Positions 6,848 to 28,169 of a stretch of 32,000 nt of DNA are shown one piece after another. Positions within the stretch are counted from its first letter, which is position 1. Every line of letters begins with the position of its first letter. The translations under genes and the position numbers were made by a program. The notes under the pieces are model-generated. The model saw only the letters and a program-made list of their open reading frames with translations, searched no databases and was not told the DNA's origin. Source of the DNA: Geotalea uraniireducens Rf4 (lineage in GTDB: Bacteria; Desulfobacterota; Desulfuromonadia; Geobacterales; Geobacteraceae); contig NC_009483.1 of assembly GCF_000016745.1 (NCBI RefSeq), forward strand, positions 90,001 to 122,000. Direction: 5' to 3'.

Positions 6848-6863
6848 TGGCATTAATTGTGCT
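6848..6863 (+). promoter_or_regulatory. Candidate sigma-54 (-24/-12) promoter upstream of the cytochrome operon
   Basis: TGGCATTAATTGTGCT compared with the consensus TGGCACG-N4-TTGCW. GG (6849-6850) and GC (6861-6862) have exact consensus spacing. It sits in the AT-rich 6840-7030 stretch, ~210 nt upstream of ATG 7075. This is pattern match only. Confidence 0.35.
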
Positions 6864-7005
6864 TAACATAACCTGTTAATTGCAATGTTTGAATGTAATC
6901 AGAGTGATAATAGCCAGTTAGCAAAATTATCTCATAATAAATTAAATCTAATTAGCGTGATTAGGCGGAGCTTGCCGTTATATTTCAAGGGTTTTTCCGG
7001 GCCTG

Positions 7006-7011
7006 TATAAT
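7006..7011 (+). promoter_or_regulatory. Candidate sigma-70 -10 hexamer (TATAAT), an alternative promoter for the cytochrome operon
   Basis: Perfect TATAAT at 7006-7011, ~64 nt before ATG 7075. Only a weak -35 (tttcaa, 6983-6988) is present at 17-nt spacing. Confidence 0.25.
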
Positions 7012-7074
7012 GATTTAAGCTTAATTAAATTATTGGTGCGGGGCCGATTCGCAGTCAAAGGGGAGAGAAACTAT

Positions 7075-10000
7075 ATGAGACACCGGATAGTGGGAAATGT
7101 TGCTGCAGAGAGCAGCAAAGCCCGGATAAGTGTCATGGCAGTTGTTGGCATGGCCATTCTGATCATTGGTTTTTTTATAGCGGATAATATTTCCCCCGCA
7201 ACTGCAAATGCCGCCGCTCCCCAATTGATCCATAACAGCGTTAACAGTGCTTCTGGCAAATATGGTACTTGGGGAACCGAGTATACCTGCGGCACCTGCC
7301 ATAACAAACTGGCGAAAAACAATATAAAGTATGTCAACTATACCATTGCCACCCCGACCGGAAAAAGGCGGGTCATCTTTGACCGCTATACCGCTACGTC
7401 CAATGCTGTGACCGGTGTGTTCGGCAATGACTTACGGACGAGCTATGTCGACGGCTCCCGCAATGTCTGCGAGGTTTGCCATCACAGGACTATTTACCAC
7501 AACTACAGTGCCACCAAACTCGTTCAAACCGGAAACTCTCTGACTCACCCGGAACACAAGAGCAACAAGAAGGACTGCAATGCCTGCCATAAGCACAACC
7601 TGGGTTATCGTCCCCCACAGCCCGGGTTGTGTACGGACTGCCACGGCGTCCCGCCGACCAATCCATCACAGCTTATAAGCAACGCCCTCGGTCCCATTCC
7701 CCCCGTCGATGCGGGTGCGCACGGCACCCACCGTTCACAGGAAGGGATGGAGTGCAGCACCTGCCACAACAATTTTGGCCATGGTCTGCTTGGCAACAGC
7801 ATGATCGAATTCGGCTTCAGGATCGACAGGAAGACCTGGACGGCATTTTCCGGCATCTCCACAGTAATGTCCGGTACAATCACTGCCACCGATAATGCGG
7901 CGTTCAACAACAATTTTGCCGTTGCTCCAGGGAACCCTGGTACGGTGCTCAACCGCACCACTGCGTGGGGAACGACATGCAGTGTTTACTGTCATGGCGA
8001 TGGGTGGGCGGCTCCATCGGGTAAGGCTCTCACGGGAGAGATTTCCTGGGCAAACGGACCCCTTGGTTCCTGCAGTGTCGCGGCTTGTCACGGCACCACC
8101 TCTGCGAACCCGCCGAACCCGGGGATCCCCGGTGCACATACGAGGCATGTGGGTGACCTGCAGTTGGCCTGCACCAAGTGCCACCCCGACTACGTCAGCC
8201 CACACATGGTCAATGGGCATGTGACCTGGAATATGTCCGGTCAGGGTGCTGCCGCCACATATAAAGGGTATCAGCATTTTTCAACTGCAACACTTCCCGG
8301 TGTCGCCCCCTACGGGGATTGCGACAACATATACTGCCACAGCAATGTCCAGCCGCAGGGAGGAGTCGGCGGGCCGGATAATTACAAGCTGGTCAGATGG
8401 GGCAGTTCAACAACATTGACATGCGACGGCTGCCACGGCGGCAAGCGGACCGATGCTGCGCCGATAGGTACCGGCGCCCATCCCAAACATATCAGCAATT
8501 ACGCCTATGTCTGTGGTGACTGCCACTTCGGTGCCGGCGCCGACGGCACACTCATGAACCACCTGAACAATAATGTCGAGGTTGTCTTCAACACCTATAG
8601 CGGAAGTTACGGCCAGATGCCGACCAACACACCAGGCAACGGCTACGATAACTGCTCGGCAAACTACTGCCACAGTGATGGTAAAGGGAATAAGAGGGTG
8701 ATTGGTTGGGGAACTGCAGGTCCTCTGGCATGTACAGCCTGCCACAAGGCAGATCAGGCTGGGAATGCCGTAAATACCGGCAAGCATACCGCCCATGTGG
8801 ATAATGCCGGTTTCCTCGGCACAAACTACGGCTGCGTCACCTGTCACGCCAATACCGTCAGTGATAATACTACAATCAGCAATATCTCAAAGCACGTCAA
8901 CAAACTGGCCGACTACTCTGGCGCCAGGGCCGGGCGCTACAATTCTTCAACCGGCACCTGTTCCGTCTCTTACTGCCACAGTGACGGCAAGGGGGGCTCA
9001 CCGGCCATAGCTGTCAGCTGGAAAGACGGCTCGGTAATAAATGATTGCAAAGGATGCCACGGCAACTCATCAGGAGGGACCTTTGTCAGCGCCTCGGGTG
9101 AGCCAAATTACGCGAACACGGGTGCCGATACCACCTTCGCCAACAGCCACGATCGCCACATGGGCGGTGTAGGCATGTCTACCTGTGTCTATTGTCACAA
9201 TGACACGGTGTCGGATACGGGTCTCAAGACCAATACATTCCATCTCAATGGCTCCAAGAACGTTGCAGCCGGTGGAGGCAAGAGCTTTACATATCTGGGT
9301 AACCGGACTTGCTCGAACATCAGCTGCCATGGTGGCCCCTCCAGCATCAAATGGGGGCAGTCTCTCCCTGCAGACTGTACCGGCTGTCATGGCAACAACG
9401 CCCTGAGCTTCGCCCCGATAAGCTCTGGCAAGCACAAGGCCCATATGAACAACGAAACAGTGCTCGGCAAAAACAGCCGTTGTGCAACCTGCCACGCACT
9501 GACTGCCAATTCCGATGACAGAAGCATTGCCGATGTTTCTGTTCACGGCAACGGCTTCAAAAACTACACCGGCTCGCTGGCCGGCAGCAGGAGCAGCTAC
9601 TCGACCGCTACCGGCGTCTGTTCGGCCAGTTACTGTCACACCGACGGTAAAGGAGTACAGAATCTGCCCTTCACCAGCCTCAACGGCTGGAAATCCACTG
9701 CTACCCTCGATTGTACCGGGTGTCACGGCAACAGCAGTCCGGCAGACTTTGCCTCTACCGCTGGCGAACCTAACTATGTCAGCGCCGGTGCCGGGACGTT
9801 ACGGGCCAATGACCATAAAAACCATGTGGACAGTGGAGCAGCCAGCTGTGTCTTCTGTCATGCCGATACGGCTTCCGTTACCGGGAGCATTTTTCTCAAC
9901 TCCAGTACCCATGTCAACAGGCGTATCGATGTCAAGGCAGGCAATGGTAAAACATTTACCTACAGCGCCGGCAAGACCTGCGGCGACATCAGCTGCCATG

Positions 10001-13000
10001 GCGGCAAAGGCTCCTTTACCAAGGTCTGGGGCACTCCGGTTACAGCCGACTGTACCGGATGTCACGGCAACAACGCAGTCAGCTTTGCCCCGATCAGTTC
10101 CGGTCGGCACAAGTCCCACATCAACAATGCCGATCTCGGCAGCAACTACAACTGTACCGCCTGCCACGCCAAGACCATCAACGCCGATGAACGTTCCTTT
10201 TTCAACCGGAACCTCCACGGCAACGGTTATGTCGATTACTCCGGGGTGCAGGCGGGCAAGAGTCCGAGCTACGATCCGGCAACGGGTGCCTGTTCAGCCA
10301 CGTATTGCCATACCGACGGCAAAGGCAAGCAGAACGTTGCATTTGGCCTTACCAACGGCTGGAAGTCGGCAACAGTCTACAGCAACTGTGCAGGTTGCCA
10401 CGGAAACGATACGGCGCCCGCCTTCGGCAGCACCGCCGGCGAGCCGAACTATCCAAACGCCGGTGAATCGCAGCTGCGGGCCAACAGCCACGAGCGGCAC
10501 ATGGGTGGAGTTGGCGGAACAACCTGCGTCTACTGCCACAACGACACGGTGACGGCGGCTGGCTCTCTCAAGTCCGGCGCTTTCCATACCAACAGCACGC
10601 GTGATGTGGCGGCCGGCGGCGGCAAGAGCTTCAGCTATGACCCCGGCACCGGTACCTGCGCCAACATCAGCTGCCACGGTGGCCCGGCGCCCGCCAGGTG
10701 GGGACAGCTCTTCCCGGCCGACTGTACCGGGTGCCACGGCAACAACGCGCTGAGCTTCGCGCCGATGAGCTCGGGCAAACATAAGGCCCATATCAACAAC
10801 AAGATCGTGCTCGGCAAAGACTATGCGTGCGCCAACTGCCACGCCCTGACCGCCAATGCCGATGACCGGAGCATCGCCGACGCCTCGGTTCACGGCAACG
10901 GCTTCAAGAACTTTACATCACCGCTGGCCGGCAACAGGAACAGCTACACCACAGCGACCGGCGTCTGCTCCGCAAGTTACTGCCACACCGACGGCAAGGG
11001 GCAGCAGAACGTAGCGTTCACCAGCGGCAATGGCTGGAAATCTTCAGCGGCCGTACAGCTTGACTGCAAAGGGTGCCACGGCAACAATTCTCCGGCAGAC
11101 TTCGCCAGCGTGAACGGCGAACCGAACTACGCCAGCACCGGGGCCGATACGGCCCGCGCCAACAGTCACAAGAACCATGTGGACAGCGGTGCGGACAGCT
11201 GCGTATTCTGCCACGGCGCGACGGTGACGGCCGCGGGTGCGATCATTCAGGACAGCACTTCTCACGTTCTCAACAAGACCATCGATGTCATTGCCGGCGG
11301 AGGCAAGACCTTTGTTTACGGGGCAGGCAAGAACTGCAGCGACATCAGCTGCCATGGCGGCAAGGGTTCCTTCACCCAGACCTGGGGCGCTCCCATATCC
11401 GCAGACTGCACCGGTTGTCATGGCAACAATGCCGTAAGCTTTGCCCCGATCAGCTCGGGTCGTCACAAGTCCCATATGAACAACCTCGATCTCGGCTCCA
11501 ACTACAGCTGTACTGCATGCCATGCCAAGACAATCAATGCCGATGAGCGCTCCTTCGCCGACCGGAACCTCCATGGCAACGGCTATGTCGATTACTCCGG
11601 GGCACGGGCGGGCAAGAGCTCGAGCTACGACACGGCAACGGGAGCCTGCTCCGCCAGCTATTGCCACAGCGACGGCAAAGGGGCGCAGAATGTTGCGTTT
11701 GGCCTTGGCAATGGCTGGAAATCGACGACCGTCTTCAGCAACTGCGTGGGGTGCCACGGCAACGACACGGCACCTGACTTCTCCAGTGCAGCGGGCGAGC
11801 CTAACTACGCCACCCAGGGTGCCGGCCAGCCACGGGCCAACAGCCACAAGATCCACGTAGGTAGCGCTGGCGCAGCAACCTGCGTATATTGCCACACAAA
11901 CACGGTAAATACCGATGGCACGACCATCAAAGGGAACCACACCAATGGTGTGATCAGCTACGAGAATTCCGCCATTGCGGGCAAGACCTTCACGCCCGGC
12001 GCGGGGAAAACCTGTTCGAACATCAACTGTCACGGCTCCGGTTCACCGGCGGCAACATGGGGTGACACCCTCGGCTGCTCCGGCTGCCACGGCGGCAATG
12101 CGGGCAACGGCCCGATCAGCACCGGCAAGCACACGGCCCACATCAACAACCCGGACATCGGCAATAATCTCGGCTGCGCCGACTGCCACGCCAATGTTGT
12201 CAATACCGATACCTCCTTCAGCAACAGGATGCTGCACGCCAATGGCTTCGCCAACTACTCGGGCGTGATGGGGGGGAGCAGCAAGACTGCCTGCAACGCC
12301 GCATACTGCCACAGCGATGGAAAGGGAAGCACGGGTGTGGCGGTTGACTGGAATACCTCCCCGGCATTTTCCAACTGCATCGGCTGCCACGGTGCCGCAA
12401 CCGGCTCAGGTACCTTCGCCGCCACGGCAGGTGAGCCAAACTATCAGAACCAGGCCGGACTCCGGGCAAACAGTCACCAGAGCCACGCATCTGCCGGCGC
12501 ATCAAGCTGCGACACCTGCCATATCAATACCGTCGTCCCGACAGGCACCGCAATCAAGCCGGGATCGCTCCACCTGAACAGCTCCATTAACGTTGATTTC
12601 AACACAAGCAAGGCCGGATTATCTGCTTGGTATGATTCGCCGAACAAGACCTGTAACAATATAAGCTGTCACGGTTCGGGAACCCCAAAATGGGGTGACG
12701 CGTCTACTACCGGCTGTACGGCTTGTCATCCCAACCTCAGCGCGACCCATGCCAAGCATGTCGGTAATCTGTTCACCTCCGGCTCGGTTACTTTCTACAA
12801 CTTTACCGCCAACCGCTCCGTCGGTACCTATTATAGCTTCGGCTGCGCCAACTGCCATCCAACCGATCCGGCCAAACACCGCAACAGCTACATCGACATC
12901 ACGCTCAACAAAAACAAGGCAGGTGCCGGTTTCCTGTCGACCCTCAACAACCTGGTTAGTGACGATGCCAACGGCTACACCAGGGGAGGAGCAAACAACA

Positions 13001-13743: not shown

Positions 13744-13751
13744 GGGGGAAC

Positions 13752-16700
13752 ATGAGTACGTTGATATCCGGGATTAAAGGTAAAGTGACCATGATGATGA
13801 TAAGACAGAATCCCAAGATGGGTGTGCAGAGAATAAAGCGGGTGGGATGGTTGTCCGCCACTATCCTCGGTCTTTTCTTTGCTTCCGTTATCAGTGTCCG
13901 GGCAGCTGACCTTCTTCATAACAGTGCCGATACCGCATCGAAAAAATGGCAGGCCCAGGGAGGCTGGGGTGTAACAGGGGGGAAGTATGGCAAGTTCGAT
14001 TGCGCTACCTGCCATGAACCCGATGCGGCCAACCTCAGGAACATCCGTAAAACCATAACCACCCAGAACGGAGAAAGCTGGCCAAGCGGCTCGCCTTCGG
14101 TAGATGTAACCTTTCTCAACTCCACAAGCATGGGCTATGACAAGGGGGGGCACGCAGCTTCCAGCCGCATATGTGAGGTCTGCCACAGTGCCAACCAGTT
14201 CCATAACTTCAATACCGCCAATAACACGGGCGGCCTTTCACATCCGACGCCCAATGCGGTCTGTACTTCCTGCCACAAGCATAACACCGGCTTCAAGGCG
14301 GCCTGTGGCGGGTGCCACGGCAACCCTCCCACTGCTGCCGTACTTGGCGGTGATTACGGCCTGATCGGCACTCCCCGCGCCTCCAACGCCATGGCTGCCG
14401 GACAGGTGGGTGCCCATGCCACCCACACCCAGACCCGCAACATGGTTTGCGACACCTGTCACTATATCAACAACGGCACCATCAAGATGCCCAATCTGAG
14501 CAACACCATCGATATCGGCTTTTATGGTTTTGGCGGCAAGGTAACCAGCGGCACCTATGTTCCCTATTCTTCCACCAGTCGTGGCTACCGCATTGCCTCG
14601 GGCACAGCCAATACGACCATGGCAACGGTGGTAACCAGCTATGCCAATGCAAACAAATGTTCCGGGGTCTACTGCCATGGCGGCGGGGTGAAAGTAGGAG
14701 CTACCCAGGTAAAAGCACCGCTTACCGGGGGTAACAATATTGCCCCGCAATGGACCGCGGTTTCCCAGAACCAGTGCGGCAGCTGCCATGGAGTAGATGC
14801 CGCCAGCCCGCCGACAATGGGGAGCCATGTCAAGCACGTGGTGCCGGTCTGGTCGGCCCAGAGCGGCAACTGCGACCTCTGTCATCCGGCCATAGACATG
14901 TCCCACGTCCAGGGAAGCTTGCGCTGGGAGATGAAGGTAACTGACGCCAGAGTCGGCGCAAATGCAACATACAAAGGTCTGGACAAGGGTGCTACCGGAG
15001 ACTTGGCCCCCAGCGACACCTACGGCCAATGCACAAACGTTGCCTGCCACACCGACGGCAAGGGGGGAGCACCGAGGCTGGATGCCACCTGGGGGAGCAG
15101 CACCTTCAATGCCGATTGTTCAGGTTGCCATGGCGGCAATGCCGGAAGTAGCGCACCCATTGCCTCCGATATGCACGGACAGCACATCAACCAGATCGGA
15201 GTAAACGGCGTCAACTTCGGCTGCGTCGAGTGTCATGCCCAGACAGTAACAGCTGACAGAACAATCGGTGTTCTTGGCAATCACCTTAATCAGCTTGTCA
15301 ACTATTCCGGGGCCAGGGCGGGCAAAAACAAGGCTGCCTGCAACAGTGCCTATTGCCACAGCGATGGCAAGGGGAATGCCGGCATGGCAGTCAGCTGGTC
15401 TGGTGGAACCCCCATCGATAACTGTATCGGCTGTCACGGCTCAGCCAGCCCTGCCGATTTTGCAAGTGTCTATGGCGAGCCCAATTATGCGAGTACCGGT
15501 GGTGGTGCAGCACGGGGCAACAGCCATAAAAAGCATGTGGCCGCCGGTTCCGCCAGCTGTATCTACTGCCATGGCGGAACCGTAACAGGAACAGGCGCTT
15601 TGACAGGTGCCAATCATATCGACATGACTATCCAGGTGGCCCCCGGTGGTGGCGAGAGTTTCGGCTATCCGGGAGGCAAGACCTGCTCGACCATTTCCTG
15701 CCATGGTTCAGGCTCTCCCAATGCCGTCTGGGGCGCCACCCTGCCGGCCGACTGTACCGGCTGTCACGGCGGCAATGCAGCAGTGGCACCCAATGACATC
15801 AAGACCGGCCAGCATACCCGGCACATTAACAATGTATCGGTGAACGGAGTGAATTACGGTTGTGCCGAATGTCATGCCCAGACGGTAAATGCCGATCTGA
15901 CGATCAGCAATTCCACCCTCCATGTCAATAAGTTTACCAACTATTCCGGAGCCCGCGCCGGCAAAAACACGGCTGCCTGCAATGCCGCTTACTGCCATTC
16001 AGACGGAAAAGGGAGCGCAGGCATCGCGGTAAACTGGGCAACAGGACCGGCCATAGACAACTGCACAGGTTGCCATGGTGCAGCCAGTCCGGCGGATTTT
16101 GCCAGTGTTTACGGCGAGCCGAACTACGCCGGCACCGGTAGTGGAGCCGAGCGCGCCAACAGCCATAAGAAGCATGTGGGAACTTCAGGCTCTTCCACCT
16201 GTATCTATTGTCATGCAGGGACAGTGGCTGTGGACGGCAAACTTGCCGGCGCCAATCATATGGATAAATCTATCCAGGTCTCACCGGGCGGAGGGAAGGA
16301 TTTCGGTTATCCCGGCGGCAAGACCTGTTCAAACATTACCTGTCACGGTGCCGGTTCACCAGATGCGGTCTGGGGTGCGACCATGCCTGTCGACTGCACC
16401 GGTTGCCACGGCGGCAACAGCGCCAGTTTCAAACCGATCTCCTCGAACATGCATAAACCACACGTGAGCCAGTCCGGCTTGAATGGGGAGAATTACGGTT
16501 GTGTCGAGTGCCATGCCCAGACGGTCAATGGAGACCGGTTGGTGTCGAATCAGGGCAACCACGGCAACCAGTTCCCCAACTATTCCGGTGCCAGGGCAGG
16601 CAAGATTGTTGCGTCCTGCAACGCCTCCTACTGCCATGGCGACGGCAAGGGGAGCGCCGGTATGGCTGTAAGCTGGGCGGGCGGCACCCCCATAAACAAT

Positions 16701-18068: not shown

Positions 18069-18081
18069 GAGGGGAAGGCAC

Positions 18082-21000
18082 ATGATCAAGAACGGCATAA
18101 AAAGATTTTTCATAAAGGGTGAAGATGCGATGAAGATACGGACTGTTATGACTATTTTTCCGGGTAGAGTGTTAAAAGGGTTGACAGCACTGGCGATTGC
18201 CTGGGCAATAAGCTTGACCCCTTTACCATCAGGTGCCGTTGATCTCATGCACAACAGTGATCCCAGTGGGGGTACCGGCTCGACAAAATGGGCAGCCCAG
18301 GGAGGATGGGGGGTGACCGGCGGCAAGTACGGCAAGTTTGAATGCTCTACCTGTCATGAACCGAATAAAAAGCCGAACATCAAGAATGTCCGTCGTGTAA
18401 TTACCACCCGGAACGGCGAGAACTGGCCCAACGGCTCATCTTCTGCCGCCATATCGTTCAGCAACGTGACCAGCATGGGCGAGGATACCGGCGGCCACTC
18501 AACCTCCAGCCGCATCTGCGAAGCCTGTCACAGCCAAAACAAATTCCATAATGCAAATACTGCAAACAATATAGCAAACGGTGGAAACCTCAGCCACCCG
18601 ACTCCCAAGGCCATATGCACCTCCTGTCACAAGCATAACACCGGCTTCAAGGCCGCCTGCGGCGGTTGCCACGGCAATCCACCCACGGAAGCGGTCATTG
18701 GGGGAGACACTGGCCTCGTTGGCACCCCCCGGCCCTCAAATGCGCTCACATCCGGTCATGCCGGTGCCCATGTCACTCACACCGAGACACGGGGCATGGT
18801 CTGCGACACCTGCCATTATATAAACAACGGCGGCATCAAGATGCCGAATCTCAGCAACAGCATCGATATCGGTTTTTTCGGTTTCGGCGGTAAGGTGACA
18901 AGCGGCACCTATGTTCCCTATTCCTCGGCCAATCGCGGCTACCGGGTCGCATCGGGCACTGCCAATACCACCATCGCAACAGTTGTAACCGATTACACCA
19001 CCGCAAATATCTGCTCCAATGTGTACTGTCATGGCGGAGGCGTCAAAGTCGGTGCGACCCAGGTGAAAGTGCCGCTGACCGGCGGAAGTAATCAGAATCC
19101 CCGTTGGGACGCAGCCAGCCAGAACCAGTGCGGCAGTTGCCACGGCACCACACCGGCCACGCCCCCTGCCATGGGGAGCCATGTCAAGCATTCCGGCTCG
19201 ACCGGCTACAGCTTCTCCTGTGATCTCTGCCATCCGGCCATTGACGTAACCCATGTCCAAGGGAGTGTCCGTTGGAGCATGAAGACTTCGGATTCCCGGG
19301 TGGGAGCTGCTGCTGCCTATAAAGCTGCCGGATCTCTTGAAGCATTGCAGCAGGGAGCAACCAATGACCTTGCCCCAAGTGCGGCCTACGGTCAGTGCTA
19401 TAATCTTTACTGCCACAGTAATGGAAAGGGCGGAACGCCACGCCAGGATCCAACGTGGGGTGACGGCAATTATTCCACCGGCTGCACAAACTGCCACGGC
19501 AACAACGCCGGTGCTGTCTCCACCATGGCCAGTAACGGCCACAAAGCCCACGTTGCAAATACAAGTGCCCGCTTTGGCGGGTTTGATTTCCGCTGTCAGG
19601 AATGTCACAACGCTACGGTAAATGCCACCGATACTGCAGTGATATCCACCTCTCTTCATGTCAATGCAGCTGCTGATGTGGCTTGGGGCCCGGACGCATC
19701 GTACGTGCCTAACGGCGGTACGAGCACCCTGCCGTACAATTCGGCCCAAACCTGCACGGTTTACTGCCATTCCAATGGTCAGGGTAAATACAAGGCTCCC
19801 CCGCAGACCTGGAACACTATTGGCGATAACCAGGAGGGGACCATTGAGTGCAATTACTGCCACAACGGCCTGGCTGGCGTGCAAAATCAGATGAGTTCGG
19901 GACGGCATCTGAATCACATCAATGGCGGCCCGCTGCCGCACAGGCCCATTGCCTGTAACTGGTGCCACTCGAACACCGTAGCCTCTAACGGCCAATCGGT
20001 ATACAACGGTACCGATGTCAAGCACATCAACCGCACGATCGACGTCTCGTTCATAAAAATGGCTAATTTCTCCGGAAGTTATAGCACCTCTAACCACGTC
20101 TGTTCAAACACGTACTGTCATACCAACAATGCAACCACCTCTACCCGGGACTGGGATACCACCACGGTCAATACCTGCGGCAACTGCCATGAGGCGAACA
20201 ATACGACCACCGCGTCAGCCACACTGTCACCCGCACACCGCAAACATTACAACAGGTCGACACGTCCTTCCAATACGACTGAGCAGGGGTGGACCAACGT
20301 CAATCTGTCCGCCAGCACCAATATCTTTATGTGCGGTATCTGCCATCCCGGCACTCCGACGACCAGCCACCTTAACGGGCCGCCGGCAGGCGTTACCAAC
20401 GGGTCTGTGGCCGAAGTGGCGATCCGCCTCCCGTTTACGCCCCCTGTCGGTGCCACCAGACCCGAGATAGTAACCCGCGGCACCGGTGTCAATTACGATG
20501 GTCGAGGCTATGGTTATTCTACCGGGACCACCTGCGATACTTACTGCCATTCCGACGGCCGGGGCAACCCGGGAAAACGCAACAGCACCAGCACGCCGAG
20601 GCTGGAATGGACTACCGCCACCGGAGTCGTCTGCGGCAACTGTCATAACCAGTATGGCGATGCTAACCCCACCTGGTCAGGTTCCCATACCAAGCATCTC
20701 TCCGGTTCACGAAGCACCAATGCCACTTGCAACGCCTGCCATGCGGCCACGGCGGCGGACAATACCACTCTGATAGCCGGCAGGCGCGACAAGCATCCCA
20801 ACGGTTTCCGCAATGTGACCGGCAACAGCATTGCCGGTGCCATCCGTTGGGACAGCAGCGTCCAGCAGTGTACCAACGTCTACTGCCATTTCAACAAGCC
20901 CGTTACCTGGGGCGGCTCTCTCCCAGCGGGTTGCATTGGCTGTCACGGCTACAACGCCGGTTCCGGAGACCCGATCGCCACCAAGGGGCACACCGCCCAT

Positions 21001-24000
21001 GTCAACAACACCAGCACCAGATTCGGCAACTTCAACTTCAAGTGCAACGAATGCCACGCTTCAACAGTAAATGCATTTGACAATGTTACTGCTGTCTCGC
21101 TTCATGCCAACAAAGTTAATAATGTGAGCTGGGGTGCCAAGTCAACGGGAGGACTCGCCTACGCAACAAACGGCTGCACGCAGATATACTGCCACTCCAA
21201 CGGCACCGGGGTATACAAGGCGCCGCCGACCACCTGGAACAACATTGCTTCGGGACAGCAGGGAACCATTGAGTGCAATTACTGCCACAACGGCCTGGCC
21301 GGTATCCAGAGACAGATGAGCACCGGGCGGCACATCAACCATATCAATGCCGGACCGCTGCCCCACAGGCCCGTTACCTGCAACTGGTGCCACTCCGGCA
21401 CCGTAGCCTCCAACGGCCAATCGGTATACAACGGTACCGATGTGAAACACATCAACCGCACGATTGACGTATCCTTCATCAAGATGGCCAACTTTTCGGG
21501 GAGCTACTCCACCTCGAACCATGTCTGCGCCAATACCTATTGCCATACGAACAATGCGACGACCTCCACCCGTGACTGGGATACCGCGACGGTCAATACC
21601 TGCGGCAACTGCCACGAGGCCAACAATACGACGACAGCGTCAGCCACACTGTCCCCGGCACACCGCAAGCATTACAACAGGTCAACACGTCCTTCCAATA
21701 CGACAGAACAAGGATGGACCAACGTCAACCTGTCGGCCAGTACCAATATCTTTATGTGCGGCACATGCCACCCGGGCAGCCCAACTGAAAGCCATATTAA
21801 CGGTCCCCCCGCAGGTGTCACAAACGGTTCAGTTGCCGAAGTGATTATGCGACCGCCGTTCTCGACGCCCCAGGGTGCCGGACGCCCTGAAATCGTGTTC
21901 CGCGGCACCGGTGTGAACTATGATGGCCGGGGCTATGGCTACTCCACCGGTACATCCTGCGATACCTATTGCCACTCCGACGGACGTGGCGGCCTTGGTA
22001 AACGGAATTACGCAAATACGGCGTTTACTCCGGTCACCAGTGTACTGCGTTGGACAGGCAGGGCTGCCGCCTGTGGAGACTGCCATAACAAGGCCAGTGA
22101 CAATCCGGCAACCACAACCTGGTCACAGCCCCACAACAAGCATGCCAACACCTATGGCAACGGCGGCACCATAGGCAGCAACAACACCACAACCAATAAC
22201 ACATTGGTAACCTGCGCCGCCTGCCATGCATCCACCGCCTCCAGCAATACGGCTCTTGTCTCCGGTAGCCGAGCCAAGCACCCGAACGGCTTCCGCAACA
22301 TATCGGCCAGCAGTACCGTAGGCTCTGCCGCATTCCGCTGGGATCCGGCAAACAACCAGTGCAAGAACGGTTACTGCCACAGCAGAGCCTATTCGTTTAC
22401 CGACTATTCCACCCCCTCGATCAAGTGGGATACGGTACAGGCGGACATTCACTGCGGCAGCTGCCACAACAGCTATCCGGTTGGTCCTGATTATGCCAAC
22501 GGCTATAAGGGAAAGGCCAACAGCCACCCCAAACATGCGGTTTTCTGGGGGTTCACCTGTGACTGGTGCCACAATGGAACCACCACAACCGGCAATACCA
22601 TCACCAACGTCAGAAACCATGTCAACAAGAACTACAACGTTGTGGCCAACGGCACCAAGACCTTTATCGGCAAGGCCAACACCTTCACCGCTACTGCGAC
22701 TACCAATCCGCCGAGCGTGAAGACCACCTGCACCAACGTCAACTGTCACGGCGGCAATACCTCAACCGTCTTCACCTGGGGGGGGACCAACAAGTGCAGC
22801 GACTGCCATCTGACCACCGCCGCCGACACGATCAACTATGCCTTCAAGAACAGCACCATGGCGACTATCAATTCTGTCGAATGGACCTACTCCGGTCATG
22901 GCAAGGCCAGCGGCACATACGACGTGACCGGGTCCAATGCGGCCAATTTCCCCGGAGCGGCCGGCACCGGCGACCCCTGTCTCTATTGTCACGACTACGA
23001 CGTGATCCACGGCGATAGCGGGAACCCGCTCCGTTTGAGAAACTTTGCCGATCCTGCCTGGGGCAAGAACGGCGTCTGTCTCATCTGCCACGCCACGGGT
23101 CAGGGTAACTATGACCCGGACGGCACAGGACCCATGACGGCCAAAGGTGCGAGCAAGAAGATCGACAAGTACCATTACGGCTTGAAGCACTCGACAACTC
23201 TTAACAGTGGCCAGTTCTGCTGGGATTGTCATGACTCCCACGGCGATCGGAACAGCACCAATGCCGGGCCGATTGCCATGGTACATCTGAAGCCTGCCGT
23301 CACCTCTGATGGCGTCACCGGCATACCAACAAGCTTTACGGCGAATAACGTTTCCTTTGTTGCCAGGGCGGCAGCCTCTGACTGGGCCAAAACAGTTGCG
23401 CCTTTCAACGGCATCTGCAACGTCTGCCATACTTATAAGTCTGCCGACCCGAACAAGATGGTGCACTTCACCGCGACCAATTCTGATGCCATCCACAATA
23501 CGACCACGGTCTGCACCCAGTGCCATCTGCATAGCTCTACGACTACCTACGATGGAACCGCATATAAAGGTGATCCTAAGGTCTGCGACGGCTGTCACGA
23601 CGGCAACAATAACGGCGGTCTTTCTCCGGGCATTGCCGGCACTCCTTCCACCAATGCCGGCCATGCCATCCATTACAACCAGGCGACCGTCTTCAACCAT
23701 TACACCGGCAACAACAAGCATACGGCCACAGCCTATGGTTTTGCCTGCAAGAATTGCCATGTGAAAACTCTCGTGAATCACCAGAACGGTGGCACAGCAG
23801 AGATGCTCGGGTCCATAGGCTATGTCCAGGGGGGGACGTCGACCCCGGACGGCCGCGATTACAACTACTATAACGCCGATACCTGCGGCACGAACAGCTG
23901 TCACCAGGATGGCAGGCTCGGAACGCCGCAAACAACCTCATTCGCGTGGTCGGGAACCAGGACATCAAACTGCGGCAAGTGCCATGTCGATATGTCTTCC

Positions 24001-25629
24001 AGCGCTTCTGCTACAGGCAGTCATGTCAAGCATGCCCAGGCATCCGGCATCGCTTATGCCTGCAGCACGTGCCATGGCACGGGGTACGGTTCGACGGCAA
24101 TCTTTAATCCGACCCACGTGAACAACCAACTGACCCTGTCTTTCACCGGCAGCGCAGCAGGCACGACGTACCAGAAGGGGACAAGCTTCCCTCTCGGGAC
24201 AGCCTTCGACACTTGTACCGTCAGCTACTGCCACAGTAGCGTCCAGGGTACCAACGGCAGCGGCGTTCCCACCTCGTACAAGACTACCCCGGCATGGGGC
24301 AACGCGGCGTCTCTCGCCTGCAGCGCCTGCCATACCGACATGACCGCTAGCGGCAGCGGCACCCACCTGAAGCATACTGCCAAGTATGCTTGCGCTACCT
24401 GCCACAGCACTGCCGGGAGCGGCACTGTCAAGCATGCCGACGGCTTCATCGACGTCACATTCAGTGGCGCAGGTGCCGGCTCCGCTTACACCCAGTCGCG
24501 TACGGCAGCAGGGAGCGACGGCTACGGAACCTGCTCCAACATCGCCTGCCACTATAACGGCACAGCCACATGGGGCGTCGGCACCCTCGCCTGTGTCAGC
24601 TGCCATCCGCTGGCGACACTCCAGGCGAATGGCGCCCACGGCAAGCATGTCAGCGCCGTGCCGACCTTCTACAACTTCACCGCCAACCGCTCAACCTTGG
24701 CGGCATACAACTACGGCTGCTCCAACTGCCATCCGCAGGATAGCTTGCTCCACGCCAACGGCAGCGTGAACGTCACGCTGAACGCTGCCAATACCGGTGG
24801 CGGCGGCAATGTGGGTAGCCTGCGAGCAAGGAACAGCGCCACTGCGGACGGCCTTGCCGCCAGCAATGGGCCTTCCGGTATATACGGCACCACCAGGGTG
24901 AGCGTGCGCTGCTCGGCCGCTTACTGTCACAGCAACGGCTACGCCGTCAACCTGAAGTACATGATAACACCCGACTGGTACGGACCTGCCTACACAGGCG
25001 ACAAGTGCGCCATGTGCCACGGCAACTCACCAAACGCCAACGATCCACTCAACCAGCCCGGCTCACCGGCCCATTACAGCAAAAACTTCCTGGGCTTTGC
25101 CAACGTCAGCGGCGGCCACCTGAGGGGTATTCACACGAACCAGATCTTCACAGGGACCATCGGCCTCGCTCCGGCCGGCAACACGGCGACCGGCAGCCAC
25201 GGTAACGCCGGCACGTCAACGACAATTAACTGCAACATCTGTCATAACAAAACGGTTACCAGCAGTGCCAATGACAAGAACGTCGCCTGCGTAGTCTGCC
25301 ACACGGCTCTGCCGAAGAACCCGGCAGACCTGATTGCCGACAAGCGCTTCCATGTCTCCGGGAACGTGGACGTCTCATTCGCCTCAATCAGGGTCAAGTC
25401 CAAGGCCCAGCTCAGGAGCGGCAGCTATGATGCAGCCATCTGGTCCCGCCAGGTGGGCTACAAGGCTTCAGGCGCATACGACGCGGCGTTCAAGACCTTC
25501 ACCACAGCGACCCAGTGGGATAGTGCCACCAAGACCTGTTCCAACATCTCCTGCCACAACGGCAAGACGGTCAAGTGGGGAGATACCGGCGGCACTACTT
25601 CCTGTGCAAGCTGCCACAGCTCGCTCTAG
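18082..25629 (+). CDS. Giant multihaem c-type cytochrome 3 (~2515 aa, ~59 CXnCH motifs)
   Basis: ATG 18082 lies 13 nt after the cytochrome 2 stop, with GAGGGGAAGG just upstream. An alternative ATG at 18130 (MKIRTV..) is possible. Signal peptide ..LTALAIAWAISLTPLPSGA|VDLMHNS. Hand count: 43 CxxCH, 13 Cx4CH and 3 Cx3CH. Stop is TAG at 25627-25629. Confidence 0.92.
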   Translation: MIKNGIKRFFIKGEDAMKIRTVMTIFPGRVLKGLTALAIAWAISLTPLPSGAVDLMHNSDPSGGTGSTKWAAQGGWGVTGGKYGKFECSTCHEPNKKPNIKNVRRVITTRNGENWPNGSSSAAISFSNVTSMGEDTGGHSTSSRICEACHSQNKFHNANTANNIANGGNLSHPTPKAICTSCHKHNTGFKAACGGCHGNPPTEAVIGGDTGLVGTPRPSNALTSGHAGAHVTHTETRGMVCDTCHYINNGGIKMPNLSNSIDIGFFGFGGKVTSGTYVPYSSANRGYRVASGTANTTIATVVTDYTTANICSNVYCHGGGVKVGATQVKVPLTGGSNQNPRWDAASQNQCGSCHGTTPATPPAMGSHVKHSGSTGYSFSCDLCHPAIDVTHVQGSVRWSMKTSDSRVGAAAAYKAAGSLEALQQGATNDLAPSAAYGQCYNLYCHSNGKGGTPRQDPTWGDGNYSTGCTNCHGNNAGAVSTMASNGHKAHVANTSARFGGFDFRCQECHNATVNATDTAVISTSLHVNAAADVAWGPDASYVPNGGTSTLPYNSAQTCTVYCHSNGQGKYKAPPQTWNTIGDNQEGTIECNYCHNGLAGVQNQMSSGRHLNHINGGPLPHRPIACNWCHSNTVASNGQSVYNGTDVKHINRTIDVSFIKMANFSGSYSTSNHVCSNTYCHTNNATTSTRDWDTTTVNTCGNCHEANNTTTASATLSPAHRKHYNRSTRPSNTTEQGWTNVNLSASTNIFMCGICHPGTPTTSHLNGPPAGVTNGSVAEVAIRLPFTPPVGATRPEIVTRGTGVNYDGRGYGYSTGTTCDTYCHSDGRGNPGKRNSTSTPRLEWTTATGVVCGNCHNQYGDANPTWSGSHTKHLSGSRSTNATCNACHAATAADNTTLIAGRRDKHPNGFRNVTGNSIAGAIRWDSSVQQCTNVYCHFNKPVTWGGSLPAGCIGCHGYNAGSGDPIATKGHTAHVNNTSTRFGNFNFKCNECHASTVNAFDNVTAVSLHANKVNNVSWGAKSTGGLAYATNGCTQIYCHSNGTGVYKAPPTTWNNIASGQQGTIECNYCHNGLAGIQRQMSTGRHINHINAGPLPHRPVTCNWCHSGTVASNGQSVYNGTDVKHINRTIDVSFIKMANFSGSYSTSNHVCANTYCHTNNATTSTRDWDTATVNTCGNCHEANNTTTASATLSPAHRKHYNRSTRPSNTTEQGWTNVNLSASTNIFMCGTCHPGSPTESHINGPPAGVTNGSVAEVIMRPPFSTPQGAGRPEIVFRGTGVNYDGRGYGYSTGTSCDTYCHSDGRGGLGKRNYANTAFTPVTSVLRWTGRAAACGDCHNKASDNPATTTWSQPHNKHANTYGNGGTIGSNNTTTNNTLVTCAACHASTASSNTALVSGSRAKHPNGFRNISASSTVGSAAFRWDPANNQCKNGYCHSRAYSFTDYSTPSIKWDTVQADIHCGSCHNSYPVGPDYANGYKGKANSHPKHAVFWGFTCDWCHNGTTTTGNTITNVRNHVNKNYNVVANGTKTFIGKANTFTATATTNPPSVKTTCTNVNCHGGNTSTVFTWGGTNKCSDCHLTTAADTINYAFKNSTMATINSVEWTYSGHGKASGTYDVTGSNAANFPGAAGTGDPCLYCHDYDVIHGDSGNPLRLRNFADPAWGKNGVCLICHATGQGNYDPDGTGPMTAKGASKKIDKYHYGLKHSTTLNSGQFCWDCHDSHGDRNSTNAGPIAMVHLKPAVTSDGVTGIPTSFTANNVSFVARAAASDWAKTVAPFNGICNVCHTYKSADPNKMVHFTATNSDAIHNTTTVCTQCHLHSSTTTYDGTAYKGDPKVCDGCHDGNNNGGLSPGIAGTPSTNAGHAIHYNQATVFNHYTGNNKHTATAYGFACKNCHVKTLVNHQNGGTAEMLGSIGYVQGGTSTPDGRDYNYYNADTCGTNSCHQDGRLGTPQTTSFAWSGTRTSNCGKCHVDMSSSASATGSHVKHAQASGIAYACSTCHGTGYGSTAIFNPTHVNNQLTLSFTGSAAGTTYQKGTSFPLGTAFDTCTVSYCHSSVQGTNGSGVPTSYKTTPAWGNAASLACSACHTDMTASGSGTHLKHTAKYACATCHSTAGSGTVKHADGFIDVTFSGAGAGSAYTQSRTAAGSDGYGTCSNIACHYNGTATWGVGTLACVSCHPLATLQANGAHGKHVSAVPTFYNFTANRSTLAAYNYGCSNCHPQDSLLHANGSVNVTLNAANTGGGGNVGSLRARNSATADGLAASNGPSGIYGTTRVSVRCSAAYCHSNGYAVNLKYMITPDWYGPAYTGDKCAMCHGNSPNANDPLNQPGSPAHYSKNFLGFANVSGGHLRGIHTNQIFTGTIGLAPAGNTATGSHGNAGTSTTINCNICHNKTVTSSANDKNVACVVCHTALPKNPADLIADKRFHVSGNVDVSFASIRVKSKAQLRSGSYDAAIWSRQVGYKASGAYDAAFKTFTTATQWDSATKTCSNISCHNGKTVKWGDTGGTTSCASCHSSL
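19483..22452 (+). repeat. Internal ~1.45-1.5 kb tandem duplication in cytochrome 3 (copy 1 19483-20931, copy 2 20932-22452)
   Basis: Both copies start GC(T/I)(N/G)CHG(N/Y)NAG...H(K/T)AHV(A/N)NTS(A/T)RFG.F.F(R/K)C(Q/N)ECH. Both contain the near-identical block YKAPP.TWN.I....QGTIECNYCHNGLAG.Q.QMS.GRH(L/I)NHIN.GPLPHRP..CNWCHS.TVASNGQSVYNGTDVKHINRTIDVSFIKMANFSGSYSTSNHVC.NTYCHTNNATTSTRDWDT.TVNTCGNCHEANNTTTASATLSPAHRKHYNRSTRPSNTTEQGWTNVNLSASTNIFMCG.CHPG. The offset is 1425 nt in that block. Confidence 0.92.
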
Positions 25630-25791
25630 GAGCCTGTCGGACTTAGGGAATCGTAGCGAGAGAATGGCAAATCGAGGACAGATTTTCGGAAATTTGAGAG
25701 CGAATAGTGGACCTATTTGTCGAAAATTTCCGGAAATATGGACCGATTTGCCATTCTCGCAGTAGATTCATTCCTAAGTCCGACAGGCTCC
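25629..25791. repeat. 163-nt imperfect inverted-repeat element (MITE-like or structured RNA) with 19-nt perfect termini
   Basis: GGAGCCTGTCGGACTTAGG (25629-25647) is the exact reverse complement of 25773-25791. An internal 15-nt arm GAGAATGGCAAATCG (25660-25674) pairs with 25744-25758. Further partial pairing (..TTTTCGGAAATTT.. with ..AAATTTCCGGAAAT..) leads to an apical hairpin AATAG-tggac-CTATT (25703-25717). No plausible coding frame. The first G is the last base of the cytochrome 3 TAG stop. Confidence 0.8.
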
Positions 25792-25818
25792 TGACAGCCC
25801 CGTTTTTTGACGCAAAAA

Positions 25819-25848
25819 AGCCCCGGTTCCGTTTGGAGCCGGGGCTTT
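25819..25848. terminator. Rho-independent, probably bidirectional terminator
   Basis: AGCCCCGGTTCC-gttt-GGAGCCGGGGCT forms a 12-bp stem with one G-T pair. It is followed by TTTCTGTT on the plus strand and preceded by AAAAAA, which reads as a U-tract for minus-strand transcripts. It lies between the convergent cytochrome operon and the minus-strand gene 25981-26289. Confidence 0.75.
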
Positions 25849-25980
25849 CTGTTGAAGCAGCATGCAGTCTTCCCCCTCAGGCGATTTCTTACTGCCTGTT
25901 TTCAGAGACTGAACCCGTTTTTAGTGTTCCGGCTGCACGCCGGGTTTAACGCGCTCCCGTCTCATACACCGTGCATTTGA

Positions 25981-27519: not shown

Positions 27520-27560
27520 ATCGACATAGATCTGCATAACCTTCCTCAATCCACGCAGTA

Positions 27561-27595: not shown

Positions 27596-27677
27596 AATTT
27601 GAACAATCAAAGTAAAATCTCATAAGCCCACATGACAATAAGCTGTAATATCAGCATGTTAGAGGTGCTGGATTGTT

Positions 27678-28162: not shown

Positions 28163-28169
28163 ATACACC

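What the first reader, a model, noticed from the sequence alone, without database searches (positions are those of the whole stretch)
7075..25629. Operon of three giant paralogous multihaem cytochromes carrying ~150 haem-attachment motifs
Three co-oriented ORFs are separated by only 8 and 13 nt, so they probably form a single ~18.5 kb transcript. They encode proteins of about 2222, 1438 and 2515 aa.

Hand counts of motifs:
- cytochrome 1: 38 CxxCH, 16 Cx4CH, 2 Cx3CH
- cytochrome 2: 25 CxxCH, 9 Cx4CH, 1 Cx3CH
- cytochrome 3: 43 CxxCH, 13 Cx4CH, 3 Cx3CH
- total: about 150, or roughly one per 40 residues

The repeat grammar (C-x4-CH ... CxxCH) matches what I remember as the Geobacter 'CxxxxCH...CxxCH' repeat family (TIGR01904-type). 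The sizes, the tandem arrangement of three paralogues and the modular length variation suggest a family of very long electron conduits or electron-storage proteins. If the haems are stacked linearly at the sub-nanometre spacing seen in known multihaem wires, each protein could span tens of nm. That last point is pure inference.
Basis: partly seen in the sequence, partly recalled or inferred. Interest (0 to 1): 0.8.

Follow-up and report, generated by a model that had tools for sequence, protein, structure and literature searches.

The report
Three giant multihaem cytochromes, one operon
Three adjacent genes of the metal-reducing bacterium Geotalea uraniireducens encode secreted proteins with 56, 35 and 59 haem-binding sites; they are real and conserved, but they are already annotated members of a large known family whose function has never been tested.

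Summary
There are three co-oriented ORFs (7075-13743, 13752-18068, 18082-25629) separated by gaps of 8 and 13 nt. They carry 56, 35 and 59 haem motifs, against fewer than 1 expected by chance, and every cysteine lies inside a motif.

The window is Geotalea (Geobacter) uraniireducens Rf4. The genes are ABQ24291-24293, which RefSeq already names "CxxxxCH/CxxCH domain c-type cytochrome". TIGR01904 membership is confirmed at 319-604 bits against a cut-off of 27.

- Each protein is a strict array of trihaem modules (Cx4CH, CxxCH, CxxCH plus HxxH and H), paired into 6-haem supermodules of about 215-225 aa.
- Protein B has exactly 35 invariant non-motif histidines for its 35 haems, which implies bis-His ligation throughout.
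- The three are distinct orthogroups, kept together as a trio in at least 9 genomes or MAGs with unrelated flanking genes. Motif counts are 32/44/56, then about 35, then 38-59.
- A sigma-54-type promoter is conserved about 200 nt upstream.
- There is no porin, lipobox or riboswitch.

Relatives with 100-151 motifs exist, so these proteins are mid-sized for the family. Function (a long electron conduit or an electron store) remains inference, because the structure predictions were not usable.

The parts
6848..6863 (+). Sigma-54 (RpoN)-type -24/-12 promoter element, TGGCATTAATTGTGCT, 227 nt upstream of the start of gene A.
   Evidence: It is the only match to TGGCAY-N5-KTGCW in the 32-kb window. 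TGGCAY-N6-TGCT lies at -196 to -227 in 6 of 9 orthologous gene-1 upstream regions that are otherwise unalignable, where shuffles predict 0.0125 regions. The published Geobacter RpoN consensus is TTGGCACGGTTTTTGCT (PMC2725144). Function not tested.
7075..13743 (+). Gene A (ABQ24291 / WP_011937020; probably Gura_0075). 2222 aa, 56 haem motifs, about 260 kDa as the holoprotein.
7075..7212 (+). Predicted Sec signal peptide of A (46 aa, cleavage after ANA). There is no lipobox cysteine.
   Evidence: Read by eye from the translation. No cysteine lies outside the haem motifs. No signal-peptide predictor was available.
8254..12939 (+). Array of seven 6-haem supermodules in A. Each is two trihaem modules, and the DNA period is 660-681 nt.
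   Evidence: Motif order 422422... and the alternating spacing. DNA repeat families with 660-681 nt spacing. Block coordinates.
10132..11493 (+). 12-haem block (two supermodules, A residues 1020-1473) that is absent from the 44-haem G. toluenoxydans orthologue.
   Evidence: The global alignment is 69% identical, with essentially one indel of about 451 aa. DNA copies 1347-1356 nt apart are 77-84% identical.
13752..18068 (+). Gene B (ABQ24292 / WP_011937021; probably Gura_0076). 1438 aa, 35 haem motifs, about 164 kDa as the holoprotein. Predicted signal peptide of 51 aa (13752-13904).
   Evidence: In 20 orthologues all 35 motif positions and exactly 35 non-motif His are conserved.
14592..17264 (+). 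Array of four 6-haem supermodules in B. The DNA period is 639 nt.
18082..25629 (+). Gene C (WP_157046096; ABQ24293 uses a later start; probably Gura_0077). 2515 aa, 59 haem motifs, about 294 kDa as the holoprotein. Predicted signal peptide of about 53 aa.
   Evidence: An internal 1425-nt duplication is 82% identical.
23779..25626 (+). C-terminal ~600 aa of C, which is mosaic. It is only 25-50% identical to the orthologues of G. toluenoxydans and G. daltonii, against 64-96% upstream. Its last 480 aa are 41% identical to the shared C-terminal cap of A and B.
   Evidence: Windowed identities and C-terminal comparisons. Motifs in this region are not conserved in the orthologues, which explains 59 versus 53 motifs.
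25628..25792 (+). 165-nt near-perfect palindrome that starts inside the stop codon of C.
   Evidence: Nested inverted repeats of 20, 15 and 17 nt. RNA fold of 25620-25860: -135.9 kcal/mol, z = -13. Role unknown; a 3' mRNA-stabilising hairpin is a guess.
25817..25848 (+). Intrinsic-terminator-like hairpin (14-nt arms, 93% complementary) followed by TTTCTGTT.

Best explanation
This is a self-contained, probably sigma-54-dependent operon. Its three products are very large c-type cytochromes that are Sec-exported and not lipid-anchored.

Each protein has three parts: an N-terminal cap, a C-terminal cap, and a central array of trihaem modules. The module reads Cx4CH - W - CxxCHG - HxxH - CxxCH - H. 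It supplies three covalent haem sites and three distal histidines, so essentially every haem should be low-spin bis-His. That suits electron transfer rather than substrate binding. Modules pair into 6-haem supermodules.

Evolution changes the length of protein A in 12-haem steps (32, 44, 56). B stays at about 35 haems. The three proteins are distinct orthogroups that are kept together.

The most likely role is a set of long, single-polypeptide haem chains. They would work beyond the inner membrane, on the outer surface or in the matrix or possibly the periplasm, as conduits and/or buffers for electrons during extracellular electron transfer.

Shown here: the genes, the motifs, the family, the module grammar, the conserved ligand count, the conserved trio and the conserved promoter motif.

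Inferred: export and haem attachment, a continuous haem chain, location, physical length (tens of nm if extended) and physiological role.
For: - Motif counts are exact and far above chance, and there are no free cysteines.
- TIGR01904, PF09698, PF14522 (cytochrome c7) and PF14537 all score above their curated cut-offs.
- The motif order is strictly 4-2-2 with alternating spacing.
- The module consensus holds across 53-144 repeat copies.
- B has 35 motifs and exactly 35 invariant non-motif His in 20 orthologues that are 54-82% identical.
- All three N-termini look like signal peptides. The mature proteins have no hydrophobic run of 16 or more residues and no lipobox cysteine.
- The trio is conserved in Rf4, G. 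toluenoxydans, Geobacter sp. OR-1 and several MAGs, with different neighbours each time.
- The 12-haem indel is documented.
- The sigma-54 motif is conserved in 6 of 9 upstream regions.
- In the literature, 35-motif Desulfuromonadia cytochromes are all predicted extracellular, and 56-motif ones periplasmic or extracellular (PMC11492766).
- Large G. sulfurreducens cytochromes GSU0702 (35 haems), OmcN and GSU2887 respond to electrode potential. [quoted passage not shown]
Against: - I found no expression, proteomic or genetic data for these three genes. No held paper cites Gura_0073-0078, and Aklujkar 2013 is not held.
- No usable structure. AlphaFold2 on 1200 aa gave pLDDT 33. One supermodule gave pLDDT 63.5 and no Foldseek match in the PDB. 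A continuous haem chain and the physical length are therefore unverified.
- No outer-membrane porin, secretion gene or other partner is linked in any of the loci examined. How a 160-290 kDa holoprotein would leave the periplasm is unexplained.
- No haematite-binding-type motif is present.
Confidence: 0.6

Rival explanations
1. Periplasmic electron store, not an extracellular conduit. The proteins would stay in the periplasm and act as a capacitor or as periplasm-spanning wires. This is the role proposed for the dodecahaem c7-domain polymers GSU1996 and GSU0592.
For: - There is a Sec signal peptide but no linked porin, secretion system or lipid anchor.
- The tandem trihaem, c7-like modules resemble the GSU1996 design. 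There is a weak profile hit to 3ov0, E = 5.7e-3.
- 56-motif cytochromes are predicted either periplasmic or extracellular.
- Electron storage is one of two rationales given for very long cytochromes (PMC11492766).
Against: - 35-motif Desulfuromonadia cytochromes are all predicted extracellular.
- If extended, 35-59 haems would far exceed the ~17 nm periplasm width quoted in PMC11492766.
- The low-Glu, Asn/Ser/Thr/Gly-rich composition looks more like a surface protein, in my judgement only.
Confidence: 0.25
2. Accessory role. [quoted passage not shown]
For: OmcG and OmcH contain Cx4CH motifs and sit next to a third such gene, GSU2884 (table in PMC9961858). They are listed among the cytochromes needed for optimal Fe(III) reduction (PMC2825233).
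Against: - According to the same table, the closest Rf4 relatives of OmcG and OmcH are Gura_3427 and Gura_3428, not this locus.
- Maintaining 150 haem sites, each with a conserved ligand, is expensive for a purely accessory role.
- I could not compare the sequences directly.
Confidence: 0.08
3. Not functional. The ORFs could be repeat-driven assembly artefacts, or decaying and unexpressed genes.
For: The genes are highly repetitive. No expression data were found.
Against: - The reading frames are intact over 18.5 kb.
- The same 56 and 35 counts occur in independent assemblies.
- All 35 motif positions and all 35 distal His are conserved in 20 orthologues that are 54-82% identical, and 19 of the 20 carry 35 motifs.
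- The DNA repeats are only 62-85% identical, which is too diverged to collapse or expand in assembly.
Confidence: 0.02

Closest known systems
TIGR01904 / PF09698 'CxxxxCH...CxxCH' cytochromes of Geobacteraceae (for example G. sulfurreducens OmcG, OmcH, GSU2884, GSU0702, OmcN)
   Same: - The same domain models score far above their cut-offs.
- The same mix of Cx4CH and CxxCH motifs, with tens of haems per chain.
- G. sulfurreducens also has three such genes side by side, GSU2882-2884.
- The G. sulfurreducens proteins are likewise functionally obscure.
   Different: - These proteins are about 1.5-2 times larger than the named G. sulfurreducens examples.
- They are not the closest Rf4 relatives of OmcG and OmcH, according to PMC9961858.
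- Here the trio has a fixed composition (32/44/56, then about 35, then 38-59 motifs) that is conserved across genera.
Geotalea daltonii FRC-32 'cytochrome c, 53 heme-binding sites' (P0071). The figure '53 heme-binding motifs' is quoted in PMC11492766 among the largest known; that this protein is the one meant is my inference.
   Same: It is the orthologue of gene C: 71-95% identical over the first ~1600 residues and 55-84% over residues 1600-1900.
   Different: From about residue 1900 identity drops to 25-37%. Rf4 carries a different C-terminal region that resembles the cap of A and B. This gives 59 rather than 53 motifs.
GSU1996 / GSU0592 dodecahaem 'c7-domain polymers' (PDB 3ov0)
   Same: The design principle is shared: tandem trihaem class-III-like domains in one chain. 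PF14522 hits support this, along with a weak profile hit to 3ov0.
   Different: - There is no significant sequence similarity with phmmer.
- From my own knowledge, each GSU1996 domain has one His-Met haem. B has only 3 conserved Met in total and one conserved His per haem.
- These proteins have 3-5 times more haems.
- The first motif of each module here is Cx4CH.
OmcS / OmcE / OmcZ cytochrome filaments
   Same: The proposed purpose is the same: a long, continuous chain of bis-His haems outside the cell.
   Different: Those are polymers of 4-8-haem subunits. Here the length would be encoded in a single polypeptide. There is no sequence match to any solved structure and no fold match.
MtrC / OmcA decahaem outer-surface cytochromes
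   Same: PF22113 (MtrC/MtrF domain II/IV) scores 59-83 bits against a cut-off of 30.
   Different: There is no lipobox cysteine, no adjacent MtrA/MtrB-type genes and no PDB sequence hit to MtrC. The Pfam hit probably reflects haem-motif spacing only.

Membership tests
TIGR01904 / PF09698 (CxxxxCH...CxxCH domain c-type cytochromes) | The domain HMM scores above the curated cut-off. | tested here: met
   TIGR01904 scores 604, 319 and 382 bits against 27, in 15, 10 and 16 stretches. PF09698 scores 152, 105 and 128 bits against 21.7.
TIGR01904 / PF09698 (CxxxxCH...CxxCH domain c-type cytochromes) | Repeated pairing of a Cx4CH motif with a following CxxCH motif. | tested here: met
   The motif order is (4,2,2) repeated throughout A and B and through most of C.
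Class III multihaem cytochromes (c3 / c7) | Match to the family profile. | tested here: met
   PF14522 scores 189, 121 and 130 bits against 24.8. PF14537 scores 90, 67 and 72 against 25. PF02085 scores 33.7 against 22.9 in A.
Class III multihaem cytochromes (c3 / c7) | Bis-histidine axial ligation of the haems. | tested here: inconclusive
   At the sequence level only: 35 invariant non-motif His for 35 motifs in B, and HxxH plus H in each trihaem module. No spectroscopy or reliable model.
Class III multihaem cytochromes (c3 / c7) | The c3/c7 fold. | tested here: inconclusive
   The supermodule model has pLDDT 63.5. Foldseek against the PDB returned 0 matches.
Polymerising nanowire cytochromes (OmcS, OmcE, OmcZ) | Homology to a filament subunit. 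| tested here: not met
   phmmer of B and C against all PDB chains gave no hit at E <= 0.01. The profile search gave only weak motif-level hits.
Polymerising nanowire cytochromes (OmcS, OmcE, OmcZ) | Inter-subunit haem stacking or ligation that forms a filament. | not testable with these tools
   This needs cryo-EM or a reliable multimer model with haems.
MtrC / OmcA outer-surface decahaem lipoproteins | An N-terminal lipobox cysteine. | tested here: not met
   No cysteine lies outside the haem motifs. The first cysteine is at residue 72-88.
Porin-cytochrome (Pcc / Mtr) trans-outer-membrane conduits | A gene cluster that includes a beta-barrel porin and a periplasmic multihaem partner. | tested here: not met
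   The window neighbours are prpBCD, cobO, an HD-GYP-type protein (PF13487/HDIG), an HMA protein, an FtrD-like protein and ABC transporter genes. The flanks in the other loci are unrelated to one another and contain no porin.
GEMM (c-di-GMP / cGAMP) riboswitch-controlled Geobacter cytochrome genes | A GEMM riboswitch in the 5' leader. | tested here: not met
   No Rfam family reaches its gathering score anywhere in the window. There is nothing credible in 6550-7150 at E <= 1.
RpoN (sigma-54)-dependent operons | A -24 GG / -12 GC element with correct spacing upstream of the first gene. | tested here: met
   TGGCAT-N5-GTGCT at 6848-6863. It is conserved at -196 to -227 in 6 of 9 orthologous loci. 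The consensus comes from PMC2725144.
RpoN (sigma-54)-dependent operons | Dependence on RpoN and an enhancer-binding protein. | not testable with these tools
   This needs 5'-RACE and genetics. No enhancer-binding protein gene was identified in the window.

The most novel reading that the evidence does not exclude
The three proteins may not be redundant wires. They could be the parts of one defined hetero-assembly, for example an end-to-end or bundled cable of about 150 haems whose length is set genetically in 12-haem steps. Three observations prompt this. The trio is always inherited together, with B fixed at about 35 haems. B orthologues have an invariant histidine at residue 5 of the predicted mature protein, and A and C carry the same L-x-H-N-S motif at their mature N-termini. 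In Rf4 the last haem motif of all three sits three residues from the C-terminus. This geometry would allow a histidine to ligate a haem in a neighbouring chain, as is known for OmcS. The whole assembly would be switched on by a sigma-54 enhancer-binding protein.
Probability: 0.1. Interest if true: 0.75.

Novelty: already known. Interest (0 to 1): 0.35.

Why it matters
Giant multihaem cytochromes are among the most iron-expensive proteins a cell can make. They are abundant in metal-reducing bacteria that matter for uranium bioremediation and for bioelectrochemical systems. None has been purified or solved, and authors who see them change expression say their function outside the cell is unclear.

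This locus does not reveal a new kind of system. It does offer a well-defined experimental target:
- a conserved three-gene unit with no confounding partner genes;
- a predicted sigma-54 switch;
- a simple 6-haem building block of about 215 aa that could be expressed on its own;
- natural length variants (32, 44 and 56 haems) for testing how chain length relates to function.

Tried and rejected
- **Riboswitch.** A GEMM paper mentions OmcG and OmcH, so I looked for a c-di-GMP/cGAMP riboswitch in the 470-nt leader. Rfam found none.
- **AlphaFold2 on mature B.** Residues 52-1251 with 22 orthologues gave pLDDT 33, which is unusable.
- **AlphaFold2 on one supermodule.** With 53 repeat copies it gave pLDDT 63.5 and pTM 0.56. 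Foldseek against the PDB gave 0 matches, so no fold assignment was possible.
- **PDB sequence searches.** B and C gave nothing. The supermodule profile gave only weak, motif-driven hits to NrfA, reaction-centre cytochromes, 6qvm and 3ov0.
- **Tandem Repeats Finder.** It found nothing because the repeat period exceeds its 500-nt limit. The repeat finder recovered the periodicity.
- **Protein search with the N-terminal cap of B.** The 282-aa query returned only 9 short fragments and no G. sulfurreducens protein. Orthology to GSU0702 or other named proteins could not be tested.
- **Literature by locus tag.** No paper matched Gura_0073-0078. Aklujkar 2013 is not held, and the supplements of PMC11492766 are not held.
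- **Conserved accessory genes next to the trio.** None found.
- **Haematite-binding-type motif.** Absent.
- **Sigma-70 promoter and terminator scan inside the operon.** Not different from shuffles.
Full report
**1.

The window has three long + strand ORFs: 7075-13743 (A, 2222 aa), 13752-18068 (B, 1438 aa) and 18082-25629 (C, 2515 aa). They are separated by 8 and 13 nt, and each start codon follows a purine-rich Shine-Dalgarno-like stretch.

| Protein | CxxCH | Cx3CH | Cx4CH | Total |
|---|---|---|---|---|
| A | 38 | 2 | 16 | 56 |
| B | 25 | 1 | 9 | 35 |
| C | 43 | 3 | 13 | 59 |

That is 150 motifs in 6175 residues, or one per 41. Shuffling the residues of each protein gives fewer than 1 motif on average and at most 5.

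A stronger check is the cysteine count. All 112, 70 and 118 cysteines sit inside haem motifs, and none is free.

One caveat concerns the start of C. GenBank starts it 16 codons later (2499 aa) than RefSeq does.

**2. Identity.**

An exact-sequence look-up places the window in the finished chromosome of Geotalea (formerly Geobacter) uraniireducens Rf4.
- The proteins are ABQ24291/WP_011937020, ABQ24292/WP_011937021 and WP_157046096 (ABQ24293).
- RefSeq names all three "CxxxxCH/CxxCH domain c-type cytochrome".
- From the accession-to-tag offsets in PMC11787507, and a table in PMC9961858 that lists "Gura 0076" as a cytochrome, the locus tags are probably Gura_0075-0077. This is inferred, not verified.

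| Model | A (bits) | B (bits) | C (bits) | Cut-off |
|---|---|---|---|---|
| TIGR01904 | 604 | 319 | 382 | 27 |
| PF09698 | 152 | 105 | 128 | 21.7 |
| PF14522 (cytochrome c7) | 189 | 121 | 130 | 24.8 |
| PF14537 | 90 | 67 | 72 | 25 |
| PF22113 | 83 | 60 | 81 | 30 |

**3. Anatomy.**

The motif order is not merely dense. It is strictly periodic: (Cx4CH, CxxCH, CxxCH) repeated.

Two spacing types alternate, so the real unit is a 6-haem supermodule.
- One type reads "C...YCH", with offsets of about 30 and 75 aa.
- The other reads "CSNISCH", with offsets of about 22 and 58 aa.
- The supermodule is 213-227 aa long, or 238 aa for the last copy before the C-terminal cap.
- At the DNA level the period is 660-681 nt in A and 639 nt in B.

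Aligning 53 to 144 copies of the supermodule from many proteins gives the module consensus:

Cx4CH - (7-13) - W - (6-8) - CxxCHG - (12-28) - HxxH - (7-12) - CxxCH..T - (~11) - H

So each module carries three haem sites and three conserved histidines.

In an alignment of B with 19 orthologues (54-82% identical):
- all 35 motif positions are conserved, and 19 of the 20 sequences carry 35 motifs (one has 34);
- of the 36 non-motif histidines, exactly 35 are invariant;
- only three methionines are conserved.

The simplest reading is one distal His per haem. That means low-spin bis-His haems built for electron transfer, with no open catalytic site. The HxxH...CxxCH...H...Cx4CH grammar is that of class III cytochromes c3 and c7. 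That comparison rests on my own knowledge of PpcA and c3, supported here only by the Pfam hits.

All three N-termini look like Sec signal peptides: a basic stretch, a hydrophobic stretch, then ANA/VRA/SGA. This was read by eye.
- There is no lipobox cysteine.
- The mature proteins have no long hydrophobic run.
- Calculated holoprotein masses are about 260, 164 and 294 kDa.

**4. Three old paralogues kept as a trio.**

A and B share their N- and C-terminal caps and are 52% identical over the C-terminal 1236 aa. B and C are 36% identical, and A and C are 26%.

A database search with B found 303 relatives at E <= 1e-10, with recurring size classes. Fetching loci shows the same three-gene order in many places:

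| Source | Motifs in genes 1 / 2 / 3 |
|---|---|
| G. uraniireducens Rf4 | 56 / 35 / 59 |
| G. toluenoxydans | 44 / 35 / 53 |
| Soil metagenome contig | 44 / 34 / 53 |
| Geobacter sp. OR-1 | 44 / 35 / 38 |
| MAGs | 44/35/47, 44/35/57, >=43/35/57, 32/29/52 |
| One MAG contig with two trios back to back | 56/35/47 and 56/35/45 |

- Gene 1 comes in steps of 12 haems.
- The Rf4 protein differs from its 69%-identical G. toluenoxydans orthologue by essentially one ~451-aa indel, which is two supermodules.
- Copies 1347-1356 nt apart in gene A are the most similar, at 77-84%.
- Gene 2 is fixed at about 35. Gene 3 varies.
- In Rf4, the C-terminal ~600 aa of C has been exchanged for a region like the cap of A and B. 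This explains 59 motifs here against 53 in the G. daltonii protein annotated "cytochrome c, 53 heme-binding sites".

Flanking genes differ in every genome and never include a porin, a secretion system or a smaller cytochrome.

These counts match published peaks. A survey of 4716 Desulfuromonadia cytochromes reports a broad maximum around 35 motifs and a "lone spike at 56" (PMC11492766).

**5. Regulation and transcript ends.**

No Rfam family matches anywhere in the window or in the leader. The GEMM riboswitch idea, raised, is therefore rejected.

The 470-nt upstream region contains TGGCATTAATTGTGCT at 6848-6863, and this is the only such site in the window.
- The upstream regions of nine orthologous trios are otherwise unalignable.
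- Six of them carry TGGCAY-N6-TGCT at -196 to -227 from the start codon.
- Shuffles predict 0.0125 regions.
- This matches the sigma-54 -24/-12 consensus and the Geobacter RpoN consensus TTGGCACGGTTTTTGCT (PMC2725144).
- A sigma-54-dependent promoter, and so control by an enhancer-binding protein, is therefore likely but untested.

Inside the operon, sigma-70-like and terminator-like sites are no more frequent than in shuffles.

Directly after the stop codon of C lies a 165-nt near-perfect palindrome (25628-25792). A canonical terminator hairpin follows at 25817-25848.

**6. How common, and how large.**

A profile of the supermodule finds 5770 representative proteins (clusters at 50% identity) at E <= 1e-3, and 1685 at E <= 1e-30.

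Among the best 150 hits (136 of them not seen in earlier searches), the median of those 136 is 51 motifs and six have 100 or more. The largest is a 5264-aa metagenomic protein with 151 motifs.

The family also occurs in Geomonas, Desulfuromonas, Pelobacteraceae, and Nitrospirota and Desulfarculales MAGs. The Rf4 proteins are therefore mid-sized members of a big family.

**7. Function.**

I found nothing experimental on these three genes.

For relatives, the literature says the following.
- Large G. sulfurreducens cytochromes GSU0702 (35 haems), OmcN and GSU2887 change expression with electrode potential. [quoted passage not shown]
- The Desulfuromonadia survey proposes electron storage or long-distance transfer for the long tail of haem counts. 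It models a 27-haem relative as a ~35 nm wire.

My own structure predictions failed, and no relative has been solved.

The best-supported mechanism is the one given under the best explanation: exported, bis-His, single-polypeptide haem chains that act as conduits and/or buffers in extracellular electron transfer.

The main rival is a purely periplasmic storage role. The absence of any linked export partner keeps that rival alive.

If the chain is extended at the 0.8-1.3 nm per haem seen in OmcS, GSU1996 and the published 27-haem model, the lengths would be roughly 30-45, 45-70 and 50-75 nm. This is arithmetic on an assumption, not a result.

**8. Verdict.**

The finding is accurate and its interpretation is sound. 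However, the genes, the family and the existence of such giants are already on record.

- the trihaem and 6-haem module grammar;
- the one-to-one ratio of conserved ligand histidines to haems;
- the conserved three-gene unit with 12-haem length steps;
- the mosaic C-terminus of C;
- the conserved sigma-54-type promoter.

Interest is moderate. It is a good experimental handle on an open question, not a new kind of system.

Noticed in passing
Not in the window: proteins P0144, P0147, P0179, P0160, P0143, P0177: The same repeat family includes single predicted proteins with 151 (5264 aa, JGI metagenome contig of 44 kb), 126 (MBI4817592.1, Deltaproteobacteria MAG), 111, 108, 108 and 103 haem motifs. 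That is well above the maximum of 87 quoted for Desulfuromonadia genomes in PMC11492766. Repeat-driven misassembly was not excluded.
   Followed up: partly
window 25628-25792: A 165-nt near-perfect palindrome begins inside the stop codon of gene C and precedes the terminator. The RNA fold of 25620-25860 is -135.9 kcal/mol, z = -13. One arm (TAAGTCCGACAGRCTCC) recurs just upstream of the G. toluenoxydans trio (L001:4215-4231, L008:5114-5130), so it may belong to a dispersed repeat family.
   Followed up: partly
L003 and L009 (same contig, CAYSMK010000015.1): One uncultured Geobacter MAG carries two complete trios in tandem (56/35/47, then 56/35/45 motifs). A Geobacteraceae MAG (JANOEC01) has two trios on different contigs (L006, L007).
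   Followed up: no
window 23779-25626: The C-terminal ~600 aa of gene C is mosaic. It is 25-50% identical to the orthologues, against 64-96% upstream. Its last 480 aa are 41% identical to the C-terminal cap of A and B. This suggests recombination between the paralogues.
   Followed up: partly
window 18082 versus 18130: The start of gene C is ambiguous. RefSeq uses 18082 (2515 aa, 13-nt gap) and GenBank uses 18130 (2499 aa, 61-nt gap). Both are preceded by purine-rich stretches.
   Followed up: partly
L002:10001-14353 (P0019): One orthologue of B has 34 rather than 35 haem motifs, so single haem sites can be lost.
   Followed up: no
window 2390-5881 and 6022-6603(-): The methylcitrate-cycle genes prpB, prpC and prpD and a cob(I)yrinic acid a,c-diamide adenosyltransferase gene lie directly upstream. 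They are unrelated to the cytochromes.
   Followed up: yes
window 92-2233: A large ORF of at least 713 aa, possibly cut off at the window start, encodes a surface-type protein with Ig-like, glucodextranase-B and OmpL47-type domains. Geobacter sp. OR-1 also has an Ig-like protein just upstream of its trio (L005:1336-3657, minus strand). This may be coincidence.
   Followed up: partly
window 26551-31823: The downstream cluster comprises an HD-domain protein (PF13487/HDIG; best NCBIfam match a c-di-GMP phosphodiesterase response regulator, below cut-off), a heavy-metal-associated (CopZ/MerP-like) protein, an FtrD-like membrane protein, a MacB/FtsX-type permease with its ABC ATPase, and a sensor histidine kinase. 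It looks like a metal-handling or efflux unit. It is not conserved next to the trio elsewhere.
   Followed up: partly
window 25981-26289 (-): A 102-aa ORF with a signal-peptide-like N-terminus has no Pfam match.
   Followed up: partly
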